NCBI GenBank assembly: GCA_963827205.1
Contig: CAWHAH010000002.1
Coordinates: forward strand, 194,433-258,432
Length of the DNA: 64,000 bases
Origin: an uncultured Verrucomicrobiae bacterium
GTDB taxonomy: Bacteria; Verrucomicrobiota; Verrucomicrobiia; Limisphaerales; UBA11358
Direction of reading: 5' to 3'
Shown: positions 29,788 through 40,448 of the stretch, in pieces
Layout of the letters: each line of letters begins with the position of its first letter
How positions within the stretch are numbered: position 1 is the stretch's first letter
Notes under the pieces: generated by a model
The model's input: the letters and a program-made list of their open reading frames with translations, nothing else
The model's database searches: none
Told to the model about the DNA's origin: nothing
Position numbers and translations under genes: made by a program

Positions 29788-30630
29788 TTAACGCTCAAAT
29801 TCAAACCGGCGGCCCACGCCGGGTGCGGCGCAGCGTCCGGGAAAACTTTCCCACAACCGCGCGACAGCCGCTGCGCCGGTGCAGTGCGCCGGCACGAGCA
29901 GCGGAATCTTCCGTTGTTGCAGCGCCTCGACCGTTGCGGCCAGCCGTTCCGGCGAAGCGTTAAGCAGGTGCAGGCCGCCCAGCACGGCGCGAACCGGCCG
30001 GCCGGGATGGAATCCCTGAATATAATCGAGCGTGTTGACCACGCCGGCATGGGCGCAACCCAGCAACACCACGACGCCGTCGGACGTGTCAAAAAACACC
30101 GCCTGATCGTCCCGCACCAGATCGGGCTGCGTGGCGCGTTCGTCCAGAAAGAAGCGTCCGCCCGGATCCTCGTAAGGTGTGTGGCGGGGAATTTCTCCAG
30201 TGACGAACAAGCCTTTGACCACCTCCGTGCAGGTTCGCGTTTCAATAATCCGCGCTTGATGGTGCATGAGAAAAGCGTGGCTGGCTTCGGGCAGACCGAT
30301 AAAACGCGGCGTGCCATCGGGTTGAAGGCTGAATTTCGGTTCCCGCGCCGCCGGGTGCAGGAAAACCGGAGGACACGACGAAGCTGCGACCACTGCCGCC
30401 AGACCGCCAGTGTGGTCGTAATGGCCGTGGCTCAAGACGATGGCGTCGAGCCGGTCCAGGCCAATGCCGAGCTGGCGGGCGTTTTCGACCAGCAAATTCG
30501 TCTGCCCGGTATCGAACAAGACCTGATGCGATCCGAATTGAATGTGCCAGGCCAGTCCGTGTTCGGCCTTGAGGCCGCGCTCGTGGACCGAATTTTCCAC
30601 CAGAACGGTGATGCTGATTTTTTGGCTCAT
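29788..30630 (-). CDS. MBL-fold metallo-hydrolase
   Basis: 280-aa ORF with HGHYDHTGG metal motif; N-terminus ITVLVEN..GLKAEHGLA is typical of the family found beside NifX-like genes. Confidence 0.8.
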   Translation of the reverse strand: MSQKISITVLVENSVHERGLKAEHGLAWHIQFGSHQVLFDTGQTNLLVENARQLGIGLDRLDAIVLSHGHYDHTGGLAAVVAASSCPPVFLHPAAREPKFSLQPDGTPRFIGLPEASHAFLMHHQARIIETRTCTEVVKGLFVTGEIPRHTPYEDPGGRFFLDERATQPDLVRDDQAVFFDTSDGVVVLLGCAHAGVVNTLDYIQGFHPGRPVRAVLGGLHLLNASPERLAATVEALQQRKIPLLVPAHCTGAAAVARLWESFPGRCAAPGVGRRFEFER

Positions 30631-31067
30631 GCGGGTTTCATGAATTTGCCGGTGGCACTCGCCTTGACCGTGCCGCCCTGCGAGAGTTTGGCGTGCAATT
30701 GAAACAGCCCTTGAGAGTCATCCTCCACCCAAGCCCGCAGCAGCGACTCTTCAGCAGCGACAACGCCGGCATGGTAACGGACTTTTAATTCTACGGTCAA
30801 ACCGCGAATTCCCCGCGCGAAGAGGCAGTTGGTCATTGCGCCGTCGAGCAACGCAGCAATCACGCCTCCGTGCAGTAAACCCGGATACCCCTCCAGCGCG
30901 CAGTGGCCAAGAAAATTTGCGCTCACGCTGCCGTCCGGCTGTGGCGTGTAGCGCAGCGCCAGCCCCATCGGATTCGACCCGCTGCACACAAAACAAAACG
31001 GATGCGCCTCCGCTTGCATGTTTTGGAAGCGGGTTTGAATGCTGTCGGGTGCAGGCGAGTTCGTCAT
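30627..31067 (-). CDS. PaaI-family (hotdog) thioesterase
   Basis: CFVCSGSNPMGLAL and LHGGVIAALLD motifs; ATG 31019 is an alternative start; 4-nt overlap with the MBL gene. Confidence 0.7.
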   Translation of the reverse strand: MTNSPAPDSIQTRFQNMQAEAHPFCFVCSGSNPMGLALRYTPQPDGSVSANFLGHCALEGYPGLLHGGVIAALLDGAMTNCLFARGIRGLTVELKVRYHAGVVAAEESLLRAWVEDDSQGLFQLHAKLSQGGTVKASATGKFMKPA

Positions 31068-31078
31068 GGGGTTGAGCA

Positions 31079-31094
31079 AAGCAGCGGCAATGCC
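31079..31094 (-). promoter_or_regulatory. candidate sigma-54 promoter (TGGCAT-N5-CTGCT) for the thioesterase/MBL operon
   Basis: Minus strand reads TGGCATtgccgCTGCT with canonical GG-N10-GC spacing. It is divergent from the sigma-54 activator gene, and the shared 12-nt motif lies ~125 nt upstream. Confidence 0.5.
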
Positions 31095-31192
31095 ATCGGT
31101 GCAAAACCGTTGTTGCCCGTTGAAAACCCGCCATTTCGCACAAACTGCGGCATGGTTAAGCGTGCAAGACCCCACGATTTCCCCGACTGACC

Positions 31193-31204
31193 GTGGCAAA
31201 ATGC
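31193..31204. promoter_or_regulatory. candidate enhancer (UAS) site GTGGCAAAATGC, inside palindrome TGGCA-N3-TGCCA
   Basis: Exact 12-mer shared with 32949..32960, in the same orientation and at a similar distance relative to each sigma-54 promoter candidate. Confidence 0.45.
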
Positions 31205-31230
31205 CATTGCGAACCCGGCCCCGATGGCGG

Positions 31231-32586
31231 ATGATGGAATGGCGGATTCGCCTCCGCGCCCAAATGCAGGAAACGCTTCATAACCAGTTGCTCGATTCGG
31301 TGCCCGACGGTGTGTTCACCGTGGACGCCGATTGGCGCGTCACCTTTTTCAATCGCGCCGCCGAGCAGATCACCGGCATCCGCCAGCAAGAGGCGCTGGG
31401 CCGGCGCTGTTGTGGTGTGTTCCGCGCCTCCATCTGCGAAACCGCCTGCGCGTTGAAGCAAACGCTGGCCACCCGCCGGCCCGTGGCCAACAAGGTCGTC
31501 TATATTGTGAACGCGCGGGGCGAGCGCATCCCGATCAGCATCTCCACCGCCGCACTCACGGATGCGCGCGGCAAAACCATCGGCGGCGTGGAGAGTTTCC
31601 GCGACCTGCGATTGGTGAACGAACTGCGCCACGAAGCCGAGCAACAGGATTCGTTTTCGGACATCATCGGGCGCAGCGCAGCGATGCGGCAATTGTTTGA
31701 TCTGCTGCCGCCCGTGGCCGAGAGCGACAGCACGGTGCTCGTGGAAGGCCCCAGCGGCACGGGCAAGGAACTGTTTGCCCGGGCCATCCATCAGCTTTCG
31801 CGTCGGCACGCGAAGAAGTTCATCGCTCTCAACTGTGGCGCGCTGCCGGACACCTTGCTGGAAAGCGAATTGTTCGGCTACAAAGCCGGCGCGTTCACTG
31901 ACGCACGCAAGGACAAACCTGGCCGCTTCGCGCTGGCCGAGGGCGGAACCATCTTTCTGGACGAAATCGGCGACATCTCGCCGGCCATGCAAACACGGTT
32001 GTTACGCGTATTGCAGGAGCGCGTTTATGAACCGCTCGGCGGCGTGGAAACCCTGCGCTGCAACGTGCGGGTGATCGCCGCATCGAACAAGCCGCTCCAG
32101 GAGCTGGTGAAGGAGGGAAAGTTTCGTGAAGACCTGTTTTATCGCGTGCATGTGGTCCGGCTGGAACTGCCGCCGCTGCGCGAGCGCCGCGAGGATATCC
32201 CCCTGTTGGTTGACCACTTCGTAGCACGATACAACCGCCTCAAGGGACGGGACGTTGCCGGTGTGTCCGATGCCGCCCTCGCGCGGCTGATGGAACATGA
32301 TTTTCCCGGCAATATTCGCGAACTGGAGAACATCATCGAACACGCCTTCGTGCTCTGTCGCAGCGGCCTGATTGAGTTGTCGCACCTGCCGCCGCATCTG
32401 CGCGGCGCGGAAGACGAAGTCCGCTCCGGGCTGCCGTCCGGCCTGACGCTGGTGGCGATGGAAAAGCTGCTCATCCGCGACGCATTGCGGCGGCACGAAG
32501 GAAATCGTGCCGCTGCCGCCCGCGAACTGGGCATTGACGTGAGCACGCTGTTTCGGAAAATCAAGGCGCTGAAATTAAAAGGCTGA
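31231..32586 (+). CDS. sigma-54-dependent Fis-family transcriptional activator with N-terminal PAS domain
   Basis: PAS (VPDGVFTVDADWRVTFFNRAAEQITG), AAA+ Walker A GPSGTGKE, GAFTDA loop, C-terminal HTH AAARELGIDVSTLFRKI. Start is ambiguous (31201, 31231 or 31264). Confidence 0.85.
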   Translation: MMEWRIRLRAQMQETLHNQLLDSVPDGVFTVDADWRVTFFNRAAEQITGIRQQEALGRRCCGVFRASICETACALKQTLATRRPVANKVVYIVNARGERIPISISTAALTDARGKTIGGVESFRDLRLVNELRHEAEQQDSFSDIIGRSAAMRQLFDLLPPVAESDSTVLVEGPSGTGKELFARAIHQLSRRHAKKFIALNCGALPDTLLESELFGYKAGAFTDARKDKPGRFALAEGGTIFLDEIGDISPAMQTRLLRVLQERVYEPLGGVETLRCNVRVIAASNKPLQELVKEGKFREDLFYRVHVVRLELPPLRERREDIPLLVDHFVARYNRLKGRDVAGVSDAALARLMEHDFPGNIRELENIIEHAFVLCRSGLIELSHLPPHLRGAEDEVRSGLPSGLTLVAMEKLLIRDALRRHEGNRAAAARELGIDVSTLFRKIKALKLKG

Positions 32587-32613
32587 AAGCCCAAAAGATG
32601 ATAACATAGAACC

Positions 32614-32889
32614 ATGCTGAACGAGCACGACCAGGATCTTCTTCTGCGTTGCCGCCGCCTCGGCCACGAGGTGACTTTCGGCTATTGCCCGCGAGAAACA
32701 GGCGGAAAGCCCTGCCGCCTGATTCTGGACTGCTGGTGGGAACAATTTGACGTGCGCTCCTTCCTGCAGGCGCATCTGTCGAAGGAGGACATGGCCCAAG
32801 TCGAGCGCCGCCAGCGCCTCTCCCCCTCCCAGCAAGATGTTGAGCCTGGTGGAGATAATCCAGCAGGCAAAGGATCGGCTGAAGCGTAA
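32614..32889 (+). CDS. small Cys-containing hypothetical protein
   Basis: 91-aa ORF 27 nt after the activator stop; Cys pattern C-x12-C-x9-C-x6-C followed by WW; no family recognised. Confidence 0.45.
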   Translation: MLNEHDQDLLLRCRRLGHEVTFGYCPRETGGKPCRLILDCWWEQFDVRSFLQAHLSKEDMAQVERRQRLSPSQQDVEPGGDNPAGKGSAEA

Positions 32890-32948
32890 ACCATGACACT
32901 CCCCCCGGCGGTGACGCAGATTGCGCTGGATCGCTCCCGTTACCCGTT

Positions 32949-32960
32949 GCATTTTGCCAC
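32949..32960. promoter_or_regulatory. candidate enhancer (UAS) site GCATTTTGCCAC
   Basis: Exact reverse complement of 31193..31204; ~120 nt upstream of the predicted start of the 33049 promoter candidate. Confidence 0.45.
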
Positions 32961-33048
32961 TAAGCACACTCTCTCTGCTTGGATCAATAATTACAGTCCC
33001 CCCTGATTTCAAAGGAAATTTCGATTTGTCTGCCAGCCAATTGGGGGC

Positions 33049-33064
33049 TGGCATGAATCCCGCA
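33049..33064 (+). promoter_or_regulatory. candidate sigma-54 promoter (TGGCAT-N5-CCGCA) for the NifX-like/def/radical-SAM operon
   Basis: GG-N10-GC spacing is correct but the -12 box is weak, and the predicted start falls within 1-2 nt of GTG 33076. Overlaps palindrome TGCCAGCC-N7-GGCTGGCA. Confidence 0.4.
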
Positions 33065-33075
33065 CTACGGCAAGT

Positions 33076-33504
33076 GTGCTGATTGCCATTCCCGTTTTGC
33101 AGGAACGCATTTCGCCGGTGCTCGACGCTGCGGCGCGGTTGCTTTTGGTTACCCACCGGCGCGGGAAGGAAGTGGCGCGGCGCGAATTTGTTCTTGGTCC
33201 GCTTACGCCGGAAGGACTGGCGCGGAGCGTAGCGGAATTGCGCGTGGATGTGCTGCTCTGCGCCGCACTGTCCAAACAGTTGCTGCGGGCTTTGGAACGG
33301 CGCGGCGTGCGGGTCAAACCGCATCTCTGCGGCGAGGTGGAGTCGGTCTTGCGCGCCTTCGACTGCGGCCATCTCCAGCGGGATGAATTCCGCATGCCGG
33401 GCTGCTGGGGACAACATTCGCACGGCAAATACTGCCGTCATCAGCGTGTTGCTCAGAACGGTAAGCCCAGTGGGAAAGAAACACGAACCCAAATTTCGGC
33501 ATGA
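33076..33504 (+). CDS. NifB/NifX-family (dinitrogenase FeMo-cofactor-binding fold) protein 1
   Basis: 142-aa ORF, GTG start. The (M)LIAIPV N-terminus and VDVLLCAALS match the family; Cys/His-rich C-terminus. Confidence 0.7.
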   Translation: MLIAIPVLQERISPVLDAAARLLLVTHRRGKEVARREFVLGPLTPEGLARSVAELRVDVLLCAALSKQLLRALERRGVRVKPHLCGEVESVLRAFDCGHLQRDEFRMPGCWGQHSHGKYCRHQRVAQNGKPSGKETRTQISA

Positions 33505-33707
33505 CAGCATCACCATCAAATCATCGGCCTGCTGGAAAGCGCAAGGTTCGCAGCGGCAAACGCCACCGGTTCCAAATCACCGGATTGCCCGGCTGGAAAC
33601 GCGCGCAACTGGGTGGGCCCGCGTTTGGCGAAGCAAACTGCAATCTTCCTCCGAAATCACGGAACGCCGAACTCCGGCCCGGCGCGAATGTGTCCGTTGA
33701 ACCATGA
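33501..33707 (+). CDS. small basic hypothetical protein (68 aa)
   Basis: ATGA overlaps with both neighbours (33501-33504 and 33704-33707) argue for translation; pI clearly basic (K/R-rich). Confidence 0.5.
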   Translation: MTASPSNHRPAGKRKVRSGKRHRFQITGLPGWKRAQLGGPAFGEANCNLPPKSRNAELRPGANVSVEP

Positions 33708-34316: not shown

Positions 34317-34961
34317 ATGACCAATTCACAAATCGAGAGCCGCCGAAACCATCGCTTGATGAAACAGCGCGAGGCGTTGTTCCGACGCTTCGGCTACGAT
34401 TCGGTGGCAAGCCGCAAGTTCGTTCTTAAGAAAGTCATGCCGTTGCCTGGGCACGTGCTCGAAATCGGCACCGGCAAAGGCCGCTTTCTCGCCGTGCTGG
34501 CGAAGCACGCGGATCGTATCACGACGTTGGACGCGGACGCGAAACAGCAACGCGCGGCAAAGCTGCACATCCGTCAGACGCGGGCTGGCCACCGGATTCG
34601 ATTTATCGTCCATGATGCCGAACATCTGCCTTGGCCTGACGCCAGTTTCGACACCGTGGTCACTGTGAACACTTTTCATCATCTGGCGCGCCCGATGCGG
34701 GTGTTCAAGGAGATGTTGCGGGTGTTAAAGCCGGGCGGGAAACTTGTCTTGAGCGATTTTTCTCCGCGCGGCTTTCAAATTTTCGACAGGATTCACCAAT
34801 TTGAAGGCGGAACGCATCCCCGCCTGAAAAATGGTTTGGCTGGGTTCGCGCACCGGCTTGGCCGGCCCGGCTGGAAAACCAGACGATTTAAAGGATGCAA
34901 TCAAGAGATTCTGGTGGCGACGGCGCCACCCGTCCCAACGAAAGGCAAAAAGCACACATGA
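34317..34961 (+). CDS. class I SAM-dependent methyltransferase (Methyltransf_11 type)
   Basis: 214 aa from ATG 34317; VLEIGTGKGRF motif I and LKPGGKLVLSDF. Confidence 0.8.
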   Translation: MTNSQIESRRNHRLMKQREALFRRFGYDSVASRKFVLKKVMPLPGHVLEIGTGKGRFLAVLAKHADRITTLDADAKQQRAAKLHIRQTRAGHRIRFIVHDAEHLPWPDASFDTVVTVNTFHHLARPMRVFKEMLRVLKPGGKLVLSDFSPRGFQIFDRIHQFEGGTHPRLKNGLAGFAHRLGRPGWKTRRFKGCNQEILVATAPPVPTKGKKHT

Positions 34962-35395
34962 TTACCATCGCAATTCCCTCAGCCGAAGGCCGGCTTCACG
35001 GACACTTTGGCGGCTGCCGGGAATTCACGCTCGTGCAAGCGGACCCCGAGCACCGAACAATTGTCAGCATCCGGCCAGTGACACCGCCGCCGCACGCGCC
35101 GGGACTTTTCCCGCGCTGGCTGCGCGAGCAGGGCGCGAACGTTATTATTGTGGGTGGCATTGGCCAGCGTGCGCTGGCCATCTTCGCCCAGGAAGGCATC
35201 GAGGTTCGCGCCGGACTTCCAGACGCGCCGGTGGAACAGTTGGCAACCGCTTATTTGAACGGCCAGTTGACCGCGACGCCGGAAGGCTGCGAACACCACG
35301 GCCATCGGCACGACCATGAGCATGGTCATCATCACCATCGCGAGCATGATCACGACCATGAAGGTTGTGACCACGGAGCCGAAACGGGGCATTGA
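34958..35395 (+). CDS. NifB/NifX-family protein 2 with His-rich C-terminal tail
   Basis: MITIAIPSAEGRLHGHFGGC and ANVIIVGGIGQRA match the family; tail EGCEHHGHRHDHEHGHHHHREHDHDHEGCDHG; ATGA overlap with the upstream gene. Confidence 0.8.
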   Translation: MITIAIPSAEGRLHGHFGGCREFTLVQADPEHRTIVSIRPVTPPPHAPGLFPRWLREQGANVIIVGGIGQRALAIFAQEGIEVRAGLPDAPVEQLATAYLNGQLTATPEGCEHHGHRHDHEHGHHHHREHDHDHEGCDHGAETGH

Positions 35396-35398
35396 GCG

Positions 35399-36292
35399 AT
35401 GAAAAGCGCCTTGGATTGCCTGCCTTGTTTCGTGTCGCAAGGACTGAACGTCGCGCGCATGGCGACTTCGGACCCGCGCGTTCAGGAACAGATTCTGCGC
35501 GAAGTGCTGCGCCGCGCCAGTCAGTCGGATTTGGCCAAGTCGCCGCCGCTGTTTGGCCGGAGCCTTCACCAGTGGGTGCGCGAGCTTGCGGGCCAGGCAG
35601 ATCCGTATTTGGCCGTCAAACAGGAATCAAACCGGCTCGCGCTGGCGCTGTTGCCCGCCTGGCGCGAGCGGCTGCGGACGGCGGAAAACCCGCGCCAGAC
35701 CGCCGTGAAAATGGCCATTGCCAGCAACGTCATTGACTATGGCATCAAGGGCGATCTTACGGCGGAAATAATTCCCGCTGCGCTGGAAAGGTCTTTTGCC
35801 GGGCCGTTCATGGGCGACGTGGACGGATTTTTCGCGGCGGCGGAGCGCGCGACCGAGATTCTTTTTCTGGCGGACAACGCGGGGGAACTGGTCTTTGACC
35901 GGCTACTCCTCGAATTGCTGCCGCGCGAAAAAATCACCGTCGTGGTCAAAGGCGGCCCGGCCATCAACGACGCCTTGCGCGCGGACGCCACGGTGGCCGG
36001 CCTCGACGGCTGGGTGGCGGTGACGGACACCGGCTGCGACGGCGCGGGCATTGAGCTGGCAGCGTGCAGCCCGGAGTTTCAGCGGCGGTTTGCGCGGGCC
36101 GATCTGATCATCGCCAAGGGACAGGCGAATTTCGAGTCGCTGGACGGCTGTGGGCAAAACATTTTTTTCATGTTCAAGGTCAAGTGTTCCGTCGTGGCCC
36201 GGCATATCGGCCACGCGGTCGGGAGCCTGGTCTTGCACCGCAATGTTCCCGAGGCGGCGGAACTGGTCCTCGCCAAAACAACAAAAGCTTGA
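35399..36292 (+). CDS. DUF89-family protein (damage-control phosphatase ARMT1-like)
   Basis: 297-aa ORF; CLPCF N-terminus, LADNAGELVFD metal motif, IAKGQANFESL. Confidence 0.8.
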   Translation: MKSALDCLPCFVSQGLNVARMATSDPRVQEQILREVLRRASQSDLAKSPPLFGRSLHQWVRELAGQADPYLAVKQESNRLALALLPAWRERLRTAENPRQTAVKMAIASNVIDYGIKGDLTAEIIPAALERSFAGPFMGDVDGFFAAAERATEILFLADNAGELVFDRLLLELLPREKITVVVKGGPAINDALRADATVAGLDGWVAVTDTGCDGAGIELAACSPEFQRRFARADLIIAKGQANFESLDGCGQNIFFMFKVKCSVVARHIGHAVGSLVLHRNVPEAAELVLAKTTKA

Positions 36293-36318
36293 GCCATAAA
36301 CAGGCAACGAATGACACC

Positions 36319-36729
36319 ATGAAAAAGAATCAACCAACAAATGCTGCCTCTACTACCGACGGCCTGAATCTCGTCGCCCAAGCATGGGAGAACCGCGAAG
36401 GACCGGCGGTATTCGCGACCGTGGACGCGGCGAAAACGCCCAACGCCATTTACGTCGGCGAAATCCGCCACGTTCCCGGCGAAGGGTTCATTGTGGCGGA
36501 CAATTATTTCTGCAAAACCCGCGCCAACATCAAGAGCGGGACAAAAGGCGCCGTTTTGTTGCTGACGAAGGACCGGAAGTCGTTTCAGGTGAAAGGTCCG
36601 CTGACCTATCACACTCAAGGCCCCGTCTTCGATAACATGCGGTCTTGGCATCATTCGAAACTTCCAGGCGCGGCGGCGACGCTCCTGCGGGTTGAAGAGG
36701 TTTACAGCGGCGCAGAAAAATTGTATTGA
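36319..36729 (+). CDS. pyridoxamine 5-phosphate oxidase-like FMN-binding split-barrel protein
   Basis: 136 aa from ATG 36319; pattern AVFATVDAAKTPNAIYV...FCKTRANIKSGTKGAVLL fits the PNPOx-like fold (by eye). Confidence 0.6.
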   Translation: MKKNQPTNAASTTDGLNLVAQAWENREGPAVFATVDAAKTPNAIYVGEIRHVPGEGFIVADNYFCKTRANIKSGTKGAVLLLTKDRKSFQVKGPLTYHTQGPVFDNMRSWHHSKLPGAAATLLRVEEVYSGAEKLY

Positions 36730-37742
36730 TGCATTCGACATCCCAACCGCGCGGCCATGTTTTCGGCCCGGTGCCCTCCCGCCGCCTCGGGCGTTCGCTG
36801 GGCGTGGACCTGGTGCCGCTCAAGACCTGCACCTTCGATTGTATTTACTGCCAGTTGGGCCGTACGACGAAAAAAACCGTTGAACGCAAGGAATGGACGC
36901 CGACGAACGCGGTGCTGGATGAGTTGAAACGCAAGCTCGCCTGCCGGCCGGACTACATCACCTTAAGCGGCTCGGGTGAACCGACACTGCACTCGGGCCT
37001 CGGCGACATCATCGAGCATATCCAGGCCTTGACGGACGTGCCGGTGGCGGTATTGACAAACGGGTCGCTGCTGTGGCAGCCGCAGGTGCGCGCCGAACTG
37101 GCCCTGGCCGACGTGGTTCTGCCCTCGCTCGATGCCGGCGATGCCTTCAAATTCGAGTTCATCAACCGGCCGCACGCCAGTCTTTCGTTTGACCAGGTGG
37201 TCGGGGGCTTGGTCGCGTTCCGACGCGAATTCCCGGGGCAGTATTGGCTGGAAGTGTTCCTCTTGGCGGGTTGCACAGCCATCCTCGCCGACGTGGATCG
37301 CATCGCCGCGTTGGTCAAAAAAATCAGGCCTGACCGCGTGCAACTGAACACCGTCGCGCGTCCGCCAGCGGAGGAATTTGCCCTGAGCGTGGCGCCGGCG
37401 GAACTGGCCCGTTGGGCGCGCCGGTTCTCTCCTCGCGCCGAAGTGGTGGCCGAGCGGCCCTCGCGGCTGGCCCACAAGTCGCGGACGCTGGACGCGCGCA
37501 CCGTGCTCGACCTGCTATTGCGGCGTCCCTGCACCGCCGAGGACATCGCGCGGGGCTTGGGCGCGAACCGGCTGGAGATTCTCAAGCGGCTGGAGGCGCT
37601 CGTTGCGCGAGGCGCACTCGAAATATCCCGCCATGAAGGTGAAATTTATTATCGCGCCAGTGCGATCCCATCCGGTCATCCACCGGAGGGTTCATTCCGC
37701 TGCTCGAAGAAACGAACAACCAAACAAAAGAATCATGAATAA
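36729..37742 (+). CDS. radical SAM protein (COG0731-like) with C-terminal winged-helix-like region
   Basis: GPVPSRRLGRSLGVDL then CTFDCIYC (CxxxCxxC); its ATG shares one nt with the upstream TGA. Confidence 0.85.
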   Translation: MHSTSQPRGHVFGPVPSRRLGRSLGVDLVPLKTCTFDCIYCQLGRTTKKTVERKEWTPTNAVLDELKRKLACRPDYITLSGSGEPTLHSGLGDIIEHIQALTDVPVAVLTNGSLLWQPQVRAELALADVVLPSLDAGDAFKFEFINRPHASLSFDQVVGGLVAFRREFPGQYWLEVFLLAGCTAILADVDRIAALVKKIRPDRVQLNTVARPPAEEFALSVAPAELARWARRFSPRAEVVAERPSRLAHKSRTLDARTVLDLLLRRPCTAEDIARGLGANRLEILKRLEALVARGALEISRHEGEIYYRASAIPSGHPPEGSFRCSKKRTTKQKNHE

Positions 37743-38154
37743 AGACAAATTGATCCAAGGATTAAACCAAGATCTCGCTGCCGAACTCGGCACCGTCATC
37801 CGTTACACCTATCAAGCCGCTAAATGCTACGGCCTGTTGGCGGCGGAATTGCGCGAACTGCTGGCGAAGGAAGCACAGGACGAACTGGGCCATGCCGCCT
37901 TTCTGATGGACGTCATTCAAGACCTGGGCGGCGAACCTGCCACCACGCCAAAGCCGTTCGAGAAGCCCGCCGACCTCAAAGGAATGCTCGAACTGGACGT
38001 GAAGATGGAGGCGGAGGACGTGGCCAACTATCTGGCGCACGCCAAACTGGCGGAACAGCTCAACCTTCCCGAACTCAAGATGAAGCTGGAAGAGATGGCC
38101 GCCGACGAGGCGGGTCATGGCCGCGAGCTGCGCCGACTCGTGAAAGGACTCTAA
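37735..38154 (+). CDS. ferritin-like (bacterioferritin/Dps-fold) di-iron protein
   Basis: 139 aa from ATG 37735; two ExxH motifs (QDELGHA, ADEAGHG); 8-nt overlap with the radical SAM gene. Confidence 0.7.
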   Translation: MNKDKLIQGLNQDLAAELGTVIRYTYQAAKCYGLLAAELRELLAKEAQDELGHAAFLMDVIQDLGGEPATTPKPFEKPADLKGMLELDVKMEAEDVANYLAHAKLAEQLNLPELKMKLEEMAADEAGHGRELRRLVKGL

Positions 38155-38158
38155 AGAC

Positions 38159-38686
38159 ATGAACAGTGGAGACAAACCTCTAGCCGGCCAGCGCATTGGC
38201 ATGTTCGGCCGCGGTGAACACAGCGACACCCTCCGGCAGAAAGACTATTTCAAGAAAAACAGGTTTGACCGCGACCTGCTCGCCCAACTGCCGCCGGGCA
38301 ACTTCACCGTCGCCGTGCGCGGCGCTCCGGTGCTCAATGGCGCCACGCTGGCGGACGCCGAGTGGGCGGGTTTGGCCGGGTTTTGCGAGATCATCACCAA
38401 CGGCTCGGACGCGCCGGGCACGCTGCTCGGAGATTGTTCACCGGAATTTCGCGCGCGGTTTGCGGCGGCGGACGTGGTCATTGCCAAGGGCCAGGTGAAT
38501 TACGAATCGCTGGCCGGCGTCAACCAGAACATTTTCTTTCTGCTCAAGGTCAAATGCCCGGTAATCGCGGAGCGGTTGCAATGTCCGGTTGGTGGCCTTG
38601 TGTTACACCATTTATTGCCGACCACGCTGCTCGAAGAAAAGAAACGCCGGGCACAGGATTCAGGTTCAAAGAAAGGCAAGTTTTGA
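38159..38686 (+). CDS. truncated DUF89 paralog (C-terminal half only) with an unrelated 38-aa N-terminus
   Basis: Residues ~39-150 align by eye with the C-half of 35399..36292 (CSPEF.RRFA.AD..IAKGQ.N.ESL....QNIFF..KVKC.V). The N-terminus includes the 66-bp repeat. May be a pseudogene. Confidence 0.5.
   Translation: MNSGDKPLAGQRIGMFGRGEHSDTLRQKDYFKKNRFDRDLLAQLPPGNFTVAVRGAPVLNGATLADAEWAGLAGFCEIITNGSDAPGTLLGDCSPEFRARFAAADVVIAKGQVNYESLAGVNQNIFFLLKVKCPVIAERLQCPVGGLVLHHLLPTTLLEEKKRRAQDSGSKKGKF
38207..38272 (+). repeat. 66-bp direct repeat, copy 1
   Basis: ggccgcggtgaacacagcgacaccctccggcagaaagactatttcaagaaaaacaggtttgaccgc; 64/66 identical to 40990..41055. Confidence 0.9.
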
Positions 38687-38732
38687 TGACCAACTCATTC
38701 TCCATTTCGGTCAAAAAAGGAAAACACAAACT

Positions 38733-40448
38733 ATGAAGCCCACTCGCATTCTCATCATCGGCGGCGTGGCCGCCGGCGCCAAGGCAGCGGCCCGCGCCCG
38801 ACGCCGCGACCCGCACGCGGACATCACCCTCGTCGAACGGGGACGGCTGTTGTCCTACGCCGGTTGCGGCATGCCCTATTATATCCAAGGCCAAGTCCAC
38901 GATTTTCACGAACTCATGTCCACGCCCGTGGGCGTGATCCGCGACGGGACGTTCTTCCAGAACGTGAAAGCCATCCGCGTGCTCAACCAGACGCTCGCGG
39001 AGAAGATTGATCGCGCCGGCAAAACGCTCAACACCGTCAATGTTGCCACCGGCGAAAAGACCGATCTGCCCTACGACAAACTCGTGCTGGCCACGGGCGG
39101 CATTCCGGTCGAACCGCGCATGGAAGGCGCGGACCTCAATCGCGTGTTTCGCCTGAATTCGCCCGACGACGCGCTGGCGATTCGCGAGGCCACCGAGCAT
39201 GGCAATGTCAAACGGGCCGTGCTGATCGGCGGCGGGTTGATCGGTTTGGAAACCGCCGAGGCGTTTGTCGCCCGCGGCATTCAAGTCACCATCGTCGAGA
39301 TGTTGGACCAATTGCTGCCTGCCTTGCTGGACTGGGAAGTGGCGGCGTTCCTGGAAAAGTATCTGCGCGGACGCGGCCTTGACATCCGGCTCGGCCAGAA
39401 GGTTACGCGGCTGGAAGGCGATGCGGACGGCAACGTCGCGCGCGTGCAGGCCACGGCCGGCACAATCGAGGCGCAAATGGTGTTGATCGCCATCGGCGTC
39501 CGCCCGAACGTCCAGCTCGCCAAAGACGCCGGTCTGGCCCTCGGCACGACTGGCGCGATTGCCGTCAACGACCAGCTTCAGACGAGCGACCCGGACATTT
39601 ACGCTGGCGGCGACTGCGTGGAATGCACGCATTTGCTCACCGGGCAGAAGGTGTTCGTGCCGCTCGGCTCGACGGCCAACAAACATGGCCACGTCATCGG
39701 CGACAATATCACCGGCGGCCAGTCCCGTTTCCCCGGCATCCTCGGCACGACGGTGTTCAAGGTGCTCGATTACAATCTCGCGCGCACCGGCCTGACCGAA
39801 AAGCAAGCGCGTCAACTGGGTTACAATGCGCTGACCGCGCTGGTGCCTGGCCCCGACCGCGCCCACTACTATCCGACGGCGGCCACCTTGCTGGTGAAAC
39901 TTGTCGCCGACGCCGCCAACGGACGCTTGCTAGGTGCGCAGGCTCTTGGCCCCGGCGACGCGGTGAAACGCATTGATGTGTTGGCGACCGCGCTGACGTT
40001 CGGCGCAACGATTGATCACTTGCCGGACTTGGACCTCGGCTACGCCCCGCCATATTCGTCGGCCGTTGACCCGCTGGCTCATGCCGCCAACGTGTTGCGC
40101 AACAAACGCGACGGCTTGGCCAAGGCGCTCACGCCGCAAGAACTGAAAGCCAAACTCGACACTAACGCTCCCGTCGTGCTGCTGGATGTGCGCACGCCGC
40201 CGGAGCGCGACCAGGGGCAACTGCGCGACCCGCGCGTGGTCTGGATTCCGCTGGGCCAGTTGCGAAACCGGCTGGCCGAACTGCCGCGCGACAGGGAGAT
40301 CGTCTGTTTCTGCAAAGTCAGCCAGCGCGGTTACGAAGCGCAGCGGGTGCTGGATGGCGAAGGATTTGCCAACGCCAAGTTTCTCGATGGCGGCCTGGTC
40401 GCATGGCCGTATCCGCTTCAAGCCGGCAACCACAAAGAAAGGCAGTGA
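38733..40448 (+). CDS. CoA-disulfide reductase-type FAD oxidoreductase fused to a C-terminal rhodanese domain (persulfide-reductase type)
   Basis: 571 aa from ATG 38733. GGVAAGAKAA FAD motif, single active Cys in SYAGCGMPY, second Rossmann GGGLIGLE, rhodanese loop CKVSQR. Confidence 0.85.
   Translation: MKPTRILIIGGVAAGAKAAARARRRDPHADITLVERGRLLSYAGCGMPYYIQGQVHDFHELMSTPVGVIRDGTFFQNVKAIRVLNQTLAEKIDRAGKTLNTVNVATGEKTDLPYDKLVLATGGIPVEPRMEGADLNRVFRLNSPDDALAIREATEHGNVKRAVLIGGGLIGLETAEAFVARGIQVTIVEMLDQLLPALLDWEVAAFLEKYLRGRGLDIRLGQKVTRLEGDADGNVARVQATAGTIEAQMVLIAIGVRPNVQLAKDAGLALGTTGAIAVNDQLQTSDPDIYAGGDCVECTHLLTGQKVFVPLGSTANKHGHVIGDNITGGQSRFPGILGTTVFKVLDYNLARTGLTEKQARQLGYNALTALVPGPDRAHYYPTAATLLVKLVADAANGRLLGAQALGPGDAVKRIDVLATALTFGATIDHLPDLDLGYAPPYSSAVDPLAHAANVLRNKRDGLAKALTPQELKAKLDTNAPVVLLDVRTPPERDQGQLRDPRVVWIPLGQLRNRLAELPRDREIVCFCKVSQRGYEAQRVLDGEGFANAKFLDGGLVAWPYPLQAGNHKERQ

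What the first reader, a model, noticed from the sequence alone, without database searches (positions are those of the whole stretch)
31193..32960. An exact 12-nt motif lies ~120-130 nt upstream of both sigma-54 promoter candidates (putative enhancer)
GTGGCAAAATGC occurs at 31193-31204 and its exact reverse complement GCATTTTGCCAC at 32949-32960. Relative to the two outward-facing promoter candidates (minus strand TGGCATtgccgCTGCT at 31079-31094; plus strand TGGCATgaatcCCGCA at 33049-33064), both copies have the same orientation. They sit about 129 and 120 nt upstream of the predicted starts, a difference of roughly one helical turn.

The first copy lies inside a TGGCA-N3-TGCCA palindrome; the second has one arm mismatch (TTGCA-N3-TGCCA). 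That is what a dimeric NtrC-family enhancer site looks like. My rough estimate of a chance 12-mer match between two ~200-bp windows is well under 1%. Site 1 overlaps ATG 31201, which argues that the activator starts at 31231 or 31264.
Basis: seen in the sequence. Interest (0 to 1): 0.6.

Follow-up and report, generated by a model that had tools for sequence, protein, structure and literature searches.

The report
OrpR-type enhancer sites flanking a σ54 activator
The repeated 12-letter motif is real and is almost certainly the DNA landing site of a redox-sensing σ54 activator of the OrpR type, switching on the two gene clusters either side of its own gene; the system is known from Desulfovibrio and is seen here in a soil Verrucomicrobium.

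Summary
GTGGCAAAATGC occurs only at 31193-31204 (+) and 32949-32960 (-). Each copy lies in a TGGCA/TTGCA-N3-TGCCA palindrome, about 131 and 122 nt upstream of the predicted starts of the only two good σ54 promoters in 64 kb.

The gene between them encodes a PAS/σ54-AAA+/Fis-HTH activator. It has the OrpR signatures: a C-x8-C-x3-C triad in the PAS domain and the rare GAFTDA loop. The experimentally mapped D. vulgaris OrpR site, GGGCGYRTTTTGCGCCC, shares its core GYRTTTTGC with the 12-mer.

In 80 related loci from at least four phyla:
- the same NNGCA-TTT-TGCNN palindrome is 10-14 times enriched beside the activator gene;
- sites often come in pairs 31-33 bp apart, as in D. vulgaris;
- site-to-promoter distances are phased with an 11-bp period.

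The activator starts at ATG 31264, so site 1 lies in its promoter region, which suggests autoregulation.

This is a new member of a known kind. The most novel by-product is that the enhancer-linked σ54 promoters are placed so that transcripts would start at the start codon (leaderless). This geometry is conserved across phyla but has not been tested experimentally.

The parts
31194..31206 (.). Enhancer site 1 (UAS-left): perfect palindrome TGGCA-AAA-TGCCA. Its centre at 31200 is about -131 from the predicted start of the leftward σ54 promoter, and it lies 56 nt upstream of the activator's start codon.
   Evidence: It scores 22.9 bits with the family weight matrix, and the next best hit in the window outside the two sites is 14.9 bits. 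It is conserved in L001-L009 and L043.
32947..32959 (.). Enhancer site 2 (UAS-right, strong): TTGCA-TTT-TGCCA. Its centre at 32953 is about -122 from the predicted start of the rightward σ54 promoter.
   Evidence: It scores 22.7 bits and is conserved in L002, L003 and L004.
32914..32926 (.). Weak partner of site 2: ACGCA-GAT-TGCGC, 33 bp upstream of site 2. It keeps the GCA-N3-TGC core.
   Evidence: It scores 8.5 bits. It is conserved at the same offset in L002-L004. Spacing of 31-33 bp is the family's characteristic pair distance, and D. vulgaris orp1 has a 31-bp pair.
31080..31095 (-). σ54-type promoter (-24/-12) TGGCATtgccgCTGCT, driving the thioesterase and MBL-hydrolase genes. The predicted start is about 31069.
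   Evidence: GG and GC are invariant while the spacer varies in L001-L009 and L043.
33049..33064 (+). σ54-type promoter TGGCATgaatcCCGCA, driving the NifX-like gene and probably the downstream genes. The predicted start is about 33075.
   Evidence: TGGCA and GC are invariant in the alignment of ten loci.
31264..32586 (+). Activator gene (440 aa), an OrpR-like enhancer-binding protein. It has a PAS domain with Cys49/Cys58/Cys62 (plus Cys50), a σ54-interaction AAA+ domain with GAFTDA, and a Fis-type HTH.
   Evidence: Pfam. Start codon fixed by conservation. Cys triad 81/81 and GAFTDA 80/81 among homologs.
30627..31067 (-). First gene of the left operon, a hotdog-fold (4HBT) thioesterase. Its ATG at 31067 is 2 nt from the predicted transcription start.
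29788..30630 (-). Second gene of the left operon, an MBL-fold metallo-hydrolase. It overlaps the thioesterase stop codon.
   Evidence: The thioesterase+MBL pair is conserved next to the activator in many loci.
33076..33504 (+). First gene of the right operon, a NifX-like protein with a weak Nitro_FeMo-Co match. Its GTG at 33076 is 1 nt from the predicted transcription start.
   Evidence: The N-terminus M-x-[IV]-A-[IM]-P...R[IV]SPV[FL]D is conserved from residue 1.
31207..31235 (+). Candidate σ70-type promoter of the activator gene (-35 TTGCGA 31207-31212, 17-nt spacer, -10 GATGAT 31230-31235), abutting site 1. This is an inference only.
   Evidence: TTGC and GATGAT/GATACT are conserved in close relatives. 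The consensus scan did not call it. The analogy is the OrpR σ70 promoter that overlaps its binding site.

Best explanation
The two motif copies are upstream activating sequences (enhancers) for an OrpR-type σ54 activator encoded between them.

Proposed mechanism:
1. Dimers of the activator bind the palindromes NNGCA-TTT-TGCNN through the C-terminal Fis-type HTH.
2. Under reducing conditions, an Fe-S cluster held by the PAS-domain cysteines permits the AAA+ domain to oligomerise.
3. The oligomer contacts σ54-RNA polymerase, bound about 100 bp away at the -24/-12 promoters, by looping the DNA on the correct helical face.
4. ATP hydrolysis then opens both promoters. This co-induces the leftward thioesterase/MBL-hydrolase operon and the rightward NifX-like operon.

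Site 1 also sits in the activator's own promoter region, so it probably represses the activator's own transcription, as in D. vulgaris.

Shown here: the sites, the promoters, the protein signatures, cross-phylum conservation of position, pairing and phasing. Inferred: binding, σ54 dependence, the redox signal and autoregulation.
For: - Only two copies exist, and their placement has chance P = 0.002-0.006.
- They lie by the only two strong σ54 promoter matches in 64 kb, each about 100 nt downstream of a site.
- The activator has PAS + Sigma54_activat + HTH_8 domains.
- Its Cys spacing C-x8-C-x3-C equals OrpR C52/C61/C65. The triad is invariant in 81/81 homologs.
- It carries GAFTDA, as listed for DVU2106, and 80/81 homologs do too.
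- The published OrpR site GGGCGYRTTTTGCGCCC, established by EMSA and ChIP-seq, has the core GYRTTTTGC, which the 12-mer contains.
- D. vulgaris orp1 has two sites 31 bp apart and an enhancer-binding site at -131.
- In 80 related loci, weight-matrix hits occur at 2.29/kb upstream and 1.55/kb downstream of the activator, against 0.16/kb elsewhere.
- Secondary sites pile up at 31-33 bp from strong sites: 41 cases against about 0.5 expected per offset.
- Site-to-promoter distances have an 11.0-bp period, R = 0.55 against a null maximum of 0.36.
- The site-plus-promoter module is in 52/80 loci and in 0 shuffled loci.
- The neighbours include Nitro_FeMo-Co proteins, one of which matches the C-terminal domain of MrpORP.
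Against: - There is no experimental binding, transcription-start or expression data for this organism.
- The metatranscriptome contigs come from relatives and do not resolve a start. Some of them run through the promoter.
- rpoN is not in the window, and its presence in this genome could not be checked.
- Site 1 has no detectable partner site within 105 bp.
- No IHF consensus lies between the sites and the promoters.
- The window protein has Gly where OrpR homologs have the Asp/Glu proposed as a cluster ligand.
- The weight matrix was trained on the same flanks in which enrichment was measured, although background rates and shuffles control for this.
- Related loci are not phylogenetically independent.
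- Identity to DVU2106 itself was not measured.
Confidence: 0.85

Rival explanations
1. Chance match: two unrelated 12-mers that happen to coincide near two chance σ54-like strings.
For: Repeated 12-mers are common in the window (1181 distinct ones).
Against: P = 0.002-0.006 for the placement. The same palindrome, the same promoter pairing, the 31-33 bp pairs and the 11-bp phasing recur in loci of other phyla that share no other intergenic similarity. No module appears in shuffled loci.
Confidence: 0.01
2. The palindromes are operators for a different, conventional regulator, or serve only for autorepression of the activator. They would not be enhancers for σ54 transcription.
For: Site 1 lies in the activator's own promoter region, 56 nt before ATG 31264. 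The orientation of the asymmetric TTT spacer is not conserved, as expected for a simple dimeric operator.
Against: Site 2 is downstream of the activator gene and has no gene start nearby other than the σ54-driven one. Sites track σ54 promoters at phased distances of 64-131 bp, which is typical of enhancers and not of operators. The core equals the site that OrpR is known to bind. No other regulator gene is conserved in the neighbourhood.
Confidence: 0.06
3. Dispersed repeat or mobile-element remnant (REP- or MITE-like palindrome), unrelated to regulation.
For: It is a short palindrome present more than once.
Against: There are only two copies in 64 kb, even at one mismatch. The next best weight-matrix hit in the window is 8 bits lower. 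The similarity does not extend beyond 12 nt. The position relative to the activator gene is conserved in other phyla.
Confidence: 0.01
4. The -24/-12 strings are not functional promoters. The flanking genes are transcribed by read-through or from σ70 promoters, and the activator acts at targets elsewhere.
For: Metatranscriptome contigs of relatives cover the intergenic DNA upstream of 33049. The predicted starts leave no room for a ribosome-binding site.
Against: GG and GC are invariant while the spacer and flanks vary. The promoter-to-start-codon geometry is conserved across phyla. Contig depth in run X26 rises from about 13 to 54-105 just after the promoter. The RNA libraries may contain DNA, and assembly contigs break at strain variants, so contig ends are not transcript ends.
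Confidence: 0.07

Closest known systems
OrpR (DVU2106) and the orp1/orp2 operons of Desulfovibrio vulgaris Hildenborough (PMC8359166, PMC3897727; Fievet et al. 2011, not readable here)
   Same: - The activator gene lies between two outward-facing σ54 operons.
- It has PAS-AAA+-HTH architecture, a Cys triad with identical spacing and the GAFTDA loop.
- One palindromic site lies upstream of each operon, with the identical core GYRTTTTGC.
- Sites pair at about 31-33 bp.
- One site is at about -131.
- One site overlaps the activator's own promoter region.
- The regulon includes Nitro_FeMo-Co (orange-protein-like) proteins.
   Different: - The outer bases differ: TGGCA/TTGCA...TGCCA here, GCGCA...TGCGC in D. 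vulgaris.
- The host phylum is Verrucomicrobiota, from soil or peat metagenomes.
- The left operon encodes a thioesterase and an MBL hydrolase, and no Mrp/ParA-type ATPase genes were seen.
- A 91-aa ORF sits between the activator and site 2.
- No IHF consensus was found.
- D. vulgaris promoters have leaders with Shine-Dalgarno sites, whereas here the start codons sit at the predicted transcription starts.
- The window protein has Gly at the Asp/Glu54-equivalent position.
NtrC enhancer at glnAp2 (enteric bacteria); from general knowledge
   Same: Dyad-symmetric sites about 100-140 bp upstream of a -24/-12 promoter. Tandem sites about three helical turns apart nucleate the oligomer. Activity depends on the helical face. 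The same sites repress an overlapping σ70 promoter.
   Different: NtrC is a phosphorylated response regulator with a different site (TGCACC-N5-GGTGCA type). Here the sensor is a Cys-rich PAS domain.
PexR of Myxococcus xanthus (PMC12754779)
   Same: A single-component enhancer-binding protein, transcribed divergently from its target. Multiple conserved UASs lie in a short intergenic region. A leaderless transcript is discussed at the locus.
   Different: In PexR it is the regulator gene that is proposed to be leaderless, and from a σA promoter. Here the σ54-driven target genes appear leaderless. The sensor domain, signal and site differ.

Membership tests
OrpR-type enhancer-binding protein and its UAS | Activator with an N-terminal PAS domain, a central σ54-interaction AAA+ domain and a C-terminal Fis-type HTH | tested here: met
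   Pfam: PAS_4 (1.4e-11), Sigma54_activat (7.8e-67), HTH_8 (2.6e-11).
OrpR-type enhancer-binding protein and its UAS | Three conserved PAS cysteines spaced C-x8-C-x3-C (OrpR C52, C61, C65), which hold the [4Fe-4S] cluster | tested here: met
   The window has Cys49, Cys58 and Cys62 counted from ATG 31264 (RRCCGVFRASICETAC). They are invariant in 81/81 homologs. The definition comes from PMC8359166. Cluster binding itself was not tested.
OrpR-type enhancer-binding protein and its UAS | Accessory feature, not defining: an Asp/Glu two residues after the first Cys (OrpR position 54), proposed but unproven as a fourth ligand | tested here: not met
   The window has Gly51. It is the only one of the 81 sequences with the RRCCG pattern; all other patterns listed carry D or E. 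An extra Cys50, present in 76/81, could serve instead.
OrpR-type enhancer-binding protein and its UAS | GAFTDA variant of the σ54-contact loop | tested here: met
   The window has KAGAFTDA. DVU2106 is listed as GAFTDA (PMC4641369). 80/81 homologs have it.
OrpR-type enhancer-binding protein and its UAS | An imperfect palindrome with core GYRTTTTGC upstream of each of the two operons that flank the activator gene | tested here: met
   GCATTTTGC is present in both copies. The published site is GGGCGYRTTTTGCGCCC, and the D. vulgaris sequences are. The outer bases differ.
OrpR-type enhancer-binding protein and its UAS | Two outward-facing σ54 (-24/-12) promoters downstream of the sites | tested here: met
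   Sequence level only: 31080-31095 (-) and 33049-33064 (+). They are unique in the window and conserved. σ54 dependence was not tested.
OrpR-type enhancer-binding protein and its UAS | The regulated genes encode orange-protein-complex components (Nitro_FeMo-Co proteins and Mrp/ParA-type ATPases) | tested here: inconclusive
   NifX-like genes are present at 33076-33504 (weak Nitro_FeMo-Co match, 8.4e-4) and at 34955-35395 (1.2e-18; it matches the MrpORP C-terminal domain). No Mrp/ParA ATPase was found among the ORFs examined. The left operon encodes a thioesterase and an MBL hydrolase.
OrpR-type enhancer-binding protein and its UAS | Direct binding of the activator to the sites, and redox-dependent activation | not testable with these tools
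   This needs EMSA or footprinting and reporter assays.
OrpR-type enhancer-binding protein and its UAS | A functional IHF site between the UAS and the promoter | tested here: inconclusive
   No WATCAANNNNTTR match with two or fewer mismatches was found in either interval. Conserved blocks exist at 31120-31143 and 33003-33042, but their role is unknown.
OrpR-type enhancer-binding protein and its UAS | Sequence identity to DVU2106 itself | not tested
Homologs from Desulfobacterota are 60-65% identical to the window protein.
Generic NtrC-family enhancer (UAS) | Dyad-symmetric site(s) 70-150 bp upstream of a -24/-12 promoter, with face-of-helix dependence | tested here: met
   The distances are 106.5 and 97.5 nt to the GG. 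Family-wide, the distances have an 11.0-bp period.
Dispersed repeat (REP/MITE) | Many copies scattered through the genome irrespective of promoters | tested here: not met
   There are two copies in 64 kb, and no other weight-matrix hit above 15 bits.

The most novel reading that the evidence does not exclude
The OrpR module is an ancient redox switch shared across phyla: Verrucomicrobiota, Planctomycetota, Acidobacteriota, Desulfobacterota and others. Its σ54 promoters are built so that transcription starts at, or within about 3 nt of, the start codon of the first gene. That would give leaderless, σ54-dependent mRNAs. It combines a promoter class that needs an enhancer with an mRNA class that needs no ribosome-binding site, and I found no description of this in the papers searched. 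In that case, the first codons of the NifX-like gene (M-K-V-A-I-P...) would also be the initially transcribed region of the promoter.
Probability: 0.45. Interest if true: 0.6.

Novelty: new member of a known kind. Interest (0 to 1): 0.4.

Why it matters
It extends a regulator studied in a single Desulfovibrio species to uncultured soil and peat Verrucomicrobiota and several other phyla.

It also provides:
- a family-wide binding motif, NNGCA-TTT-TGCNN;
- architectural rules, namely pairs of sites about 32 bp apart and 11-bp phasing to the promoter;
- a predicted regulon of NifX-like proteins, a thioesterase, an MBL hydrolase, DUF89 and a radical-SAM enzyme. This could help to work out what orange-protein-type systems do in anaerobes.

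The apparent leaderless σ54 transcripts, if confirmed, would be an unusual way of coupling transcription initiation to translation.

Tried and rejected
- **RNA evidence.** Only metatranscriptome assemblies of relatives at 85-95% identity hold the region. Contig ends reflect strain variation, and some contigs cross the promoter, so no 5' end could be assigned.
- **Array of three sites at site 1.** I considered further sites at 33-bp steps (31134, 31167, 31200). The weight matrix gives no score of 3 bits or more within 105 bp of site 1, so I rejected this.
- **IHF consensus.** Nothing was found between the sites and the promoters.
- **Activator's own promoter.** The σ70 consensus scan did not call one. 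Only a weak, manually found candidate remains.
- **Known RNA element.** Rfam gives no match in 30500-33700.
- **Literature.** The 2011 D. vulgaris paper (PMC3133258) and the 2021 supplementary alignment are not held, so identity to DVU2106 was not measured.
- **Covariation of the recognition helix with the outer bases of the site.** There is a lineage trend, but it cannot be separated from phylogeny.
Full report
**Observation**

The 12-mer GTGGCAAAATGC occurs at 31193-31204 on the plus strand and at 32949-32960 on the minus strand. There are no other copies in the 64-kb window, even with one mismatch allowed. Site 1 is the perfect palindrome TGGCAAAATGCCA (31194-31206). Site 2 is TTGCATTTTGCCA (32947-32959). 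The similarity between the two regions does not extend beyond the 12 nt.

The two σ54-like promoters are the only TGGCA-N6-YYGCW matches in the window. The right one is at 33049-33064 as reported.

A first-order Markov simulation of the two 200-nt upstream regions gives P = 0.0024 for a shared 12-mer in the same orientation and 0.0063 in either orientation. Repeated 12-mers in general are common in the window (1181 distinct ones).

**Surroundings**

- *Activator.* Between the two sites lies a gene for a PAS / σ54-interaction AAA+ / Fis-type HTH activator.
- *Left operon.* To the left, on the minus strand, are a hotdog-fold thioesterase (30627-31067) and an MBL-fold hydrolase (29788-30630).
- *Right operon.* To the right, on the plus strand, are a 91-aa ORF with no family match (32614-32889), then site 2 and the promoter, then a NifX-like gene (33076-33504). 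Further downstream are a peptide deformylase, a methyltransferase, a clear Nitro_FeMo-Co protein (34955-35395), a DUF89 phosphatase and a radical-SAM enzyme. The Nitro_FeMo-Co protein matches the C-terminal domain of MrpORP.
- *Activator start.* An alignment of 15 close relatives shows that ATG 31264 is conserved in all of them. The stretch 31209-31263 is variable and has indels that are not multiples of three. The activator therefore starts at 31264, and site 1 lies 56 nt upstream of its coding sequence. The ATG at 31201 is simply part of the palindrome.

**Link to a known system**

In Desulfovibrio vulgaris Hildenborough, the σ54 activator OrpR (DVU2106) lies between two divergent σ54 operons, orp1 and orp2. 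EMSA and ChIP-seq show that it binds a 17-bp imperfect palindrome, GGGCGYRTTTTGCGCCC, upstream of each operon (PMC8359166).

- *Shared core.* The core GYRTTTTGC is contained in the window 12-mer GCATTTTGCCAC. Read as GCGCA-TTT-TGCGC, the D. vulgaris site has the same GCA-N3-TGC dyad as TGGCA-TTT-TGCCA.
- *Cysteines.* OrpR senses redox potential through a [4Fe-4S] cluster that needs PAS cysteines C52, C61 and C65. The window protein has cysteines with exactly that spacing (Cys49, Cys58, Cys62; RRCCGVFRASICETAC).
- *σ54-contact loop.* DVU2106 is listed with the unusual loop GAFTDA (PMC4641369). The window protein also has GAFTDA.
- *Promoter architecture.* The published orp promoter sequences show two OrpR sites 31 bp apart at orp1. 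The enhancer-binding sites are at -131 (orp1) and -88 (orp2), and the σ70 promoter of orpR overlaps its binding site, giving negative autoregulation (PMC3897727). In the window, the site centres are at about -131 and -122 from the predicted starts.

**Comparative test**

A genome scan returned 80 loci encoding relatives of the activator at 60-96% identity. They come from Verrucomicrobiota (the closest are Limisphaerales MAGs from bogs and soils), Planctomycetota, Acidobacteriota, Desulfobacterota, Sumerlaeota and others.

- *Protein signatures.* All 81 proteins keep the three cysteines, and 80 keep GAFTDA.
- *Gene neighbourhood.* It is conserved but shuffled. A NifX-like gene lies either downstream of or divergent from the activator, together with thioesterase+MBL, a second NifX-like gene, DUF89 and radical-SAM genes.
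- *Weight matrix.* A 17-nt matrix built from the flanks has the consensus cATTGCATTTTGCAATg and 18.3 bits of information.
- *Enrichment.* Hits of 10 bits or more occur at 2.29/kb in the 410 nt around the activator start and at 1.55/kb in the 650 nt after its stop. The rate is 0.11/kb inside the gene and 0.16/kb elsewhere.
- *In the window.* The two sites score 22.9 and 22.7 bits, and the next best hit is 14.9 bits.
- *Pairing.* Secondary sites cluster at 31-33 bp from strong sites, with 41 cases against about 0.5 expected per offset. Site 2 has such a partner at 32912-32928 (ACGCA-GAT-TGCGC). It is weak by score but conserved in L002-L004. Site 1 has none.
- *Phasing.* Distances from a site to the -24 GG fall into classes near 64, 75, 85, 97, 106, 117 and 129 nt. 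The best period is 11.0 bp, with R = 0.55 against a null maximum of 0.36 in 2000 simulations.
- *Module count.* A site of 13 bits or more lying 40-150 nt upstream of a σ54 match occurs in 52 of 80 loci and never in shuffled loci.
- *Promoter footprint.* In the alignments, GG and GC are invariant while the spacer and the flanks drift.
- *Orientation.* The orientation of the asymmetric TTT spacer relative to transcription is not fixed: 52 sites share the direction of transcription and 27 oppose it.

**Mechanism**

The best-supported model is the OrpR model moved into a new host. Activator dimers occupy the palindromes. When the Fe-S cluster in the PAS domain is reduced, the AAA+ domains assemble, loop the DNA to the σ54 holoenzyme and open both promoters. 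Site 1 probably also dampens the activator's own transcription.

The sequence features and their conservation are shown here. Binding, σ54 dependence, the redox signal and autoregulation are inferred. rpoN is not in the window. Published surveys report that Verrucomicrobia usually encode it (PMC3372290).

**Differences from D. vulgaris**

- The outer bases of the site differ.
- The left operon encodes a thioesterase and an MBL hydrolase, and no Mrp/ParA ATPase genes were seen.
- No IHF consensus was found.
- The window protein has Gly at the position of the Asp/Glu proposed as a fourth cluster ligand. It is the only one of 81 sequences with the RRCCG pattern.
- The promoter-to-gene geometry is different, as described next.

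**By-product: apparently leaderless transcripts**

In the window, the predicted starts (16-mer start + 26) are 33075 and 31069. The start codons are GTG 33076 and ATG 31067.

Across the loci, 35 of 55 enhancer-linked σ54 promoters (64%) have the start codon of an ORF of 70 aa or more within -1 to +6 of the predicted start. The figure is 12.5% at random positions. The NifX-like N-terminus (M-K/R/T-I/V-A-I/M-P...R-I/V-SPV-F/L-D) is conserved from residue 1. D. vulgaris, in contrast, has leaders with Shine-Dalgarno sites.

Metatranscriptome contigs of relatives show that the region is expressed. In one run, depth rises just after the promoter. They cannot define a 5' end. In the papers searched, I found no description of σ54-driven leaderless genes.

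**Verdict**

In kind it is already understood: an OrpR-type enhancer. It is new for this phylum, and the comparison yields family-wide rules that go beyond what the literature I could read describes. I rate it a new member of a known kind with moderate interest. The leaderless geometry is the element most worth an experiment.

Noticed in passing
window 33049-33078 and 31065-31095; L002, L004, L006, L026, L027, L032, L049, L053, L057, L063, L065-L080 and others: The enhancer-linked σ54 promoters sit 9-15 nt before the start codon, so the predicted transcription start is 0-5 nt from the ATG or GTG (leaderless). This holds for 64% of enhancer-linked promoters against 12.5% of random positions. 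The D. vulgaris orp promoters have Shine-Dalgarno leaders instead.
   Followed up: partly
window 32614-32889 (+): A 91-aa ORF with four Cys and no Pfam or NCBIfam match lies between the activator and site 2. It is conserved at 67-84% in L001-L004 and L018. In L018 it stays next to the sites and the NifX-like gene even though it is 2.5 kb from the activator. Metatranscriptome contigs of relatives cover it. A σ70-like match at 32534-32561 lies just upstream.
   Followed up: partly
window 31120-31143 and 33003-33042: There are conserved blocks between each enhancer site and its promoter: TTGAAAACCCGCCATTTCGCACAA on the left, and an A/T-rich block with three GATTTC/G repeats on the right. They are conserved in the closest relatives, do not match the IHF consensus, and their role is unknown.
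   Followed up: partly
window 31414-31416 (residue 51 of the activator): The window activator has Gly where the other listed homolog patterns have Asp or Glu. This is the position equivalent to OrpR D/E54, the proposed fourth ligand of the Fe-S cluster. An adjacent extra Cys (Cys50) is present in 76 of 81 sequences.
   Followed up: partly
L001-L080 versus the HTH of the activator: The outer bases of the half-site follow lineage: TGGCA in the window's clade, TTGCA in most others, and CGCA in L046, L049 and L053. Those three have a recognition helix reading PATLFRKAK or PATLYRKAK in place of PSTLFRKIK. This may be protein-DNA covariation, but it is confounded by phylogeny.
   Followed up: partly
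window 33425-33704: One metatranscriptome contig (run X26) joins 33425 to 33704. A relative therefore lacks the 278 nt between the end of the NifX-like gene and the deformylase gene.
   Followed up: no
window 33629-33645 (-): A weaker match to the site matrix (GATTGCAGTTTGCTTCG, 14.1 bits) lies in the gap before the deformylase gene, with no σ54 match nearby. It is probably background.
   Followed up: no
window 35399-40448: Downstream on the same strand is a run of redox- and cofactor-related genes: DUF89 phosphatase, a PNPOx-like ORF, a radical-SAM enzyme, a ferritin-like protein, a second DUF89 fragment and a CoA-disulfide-reductase/rhodanese fusion. They may belong to the same redox-controlled unit.
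   Followed up: no
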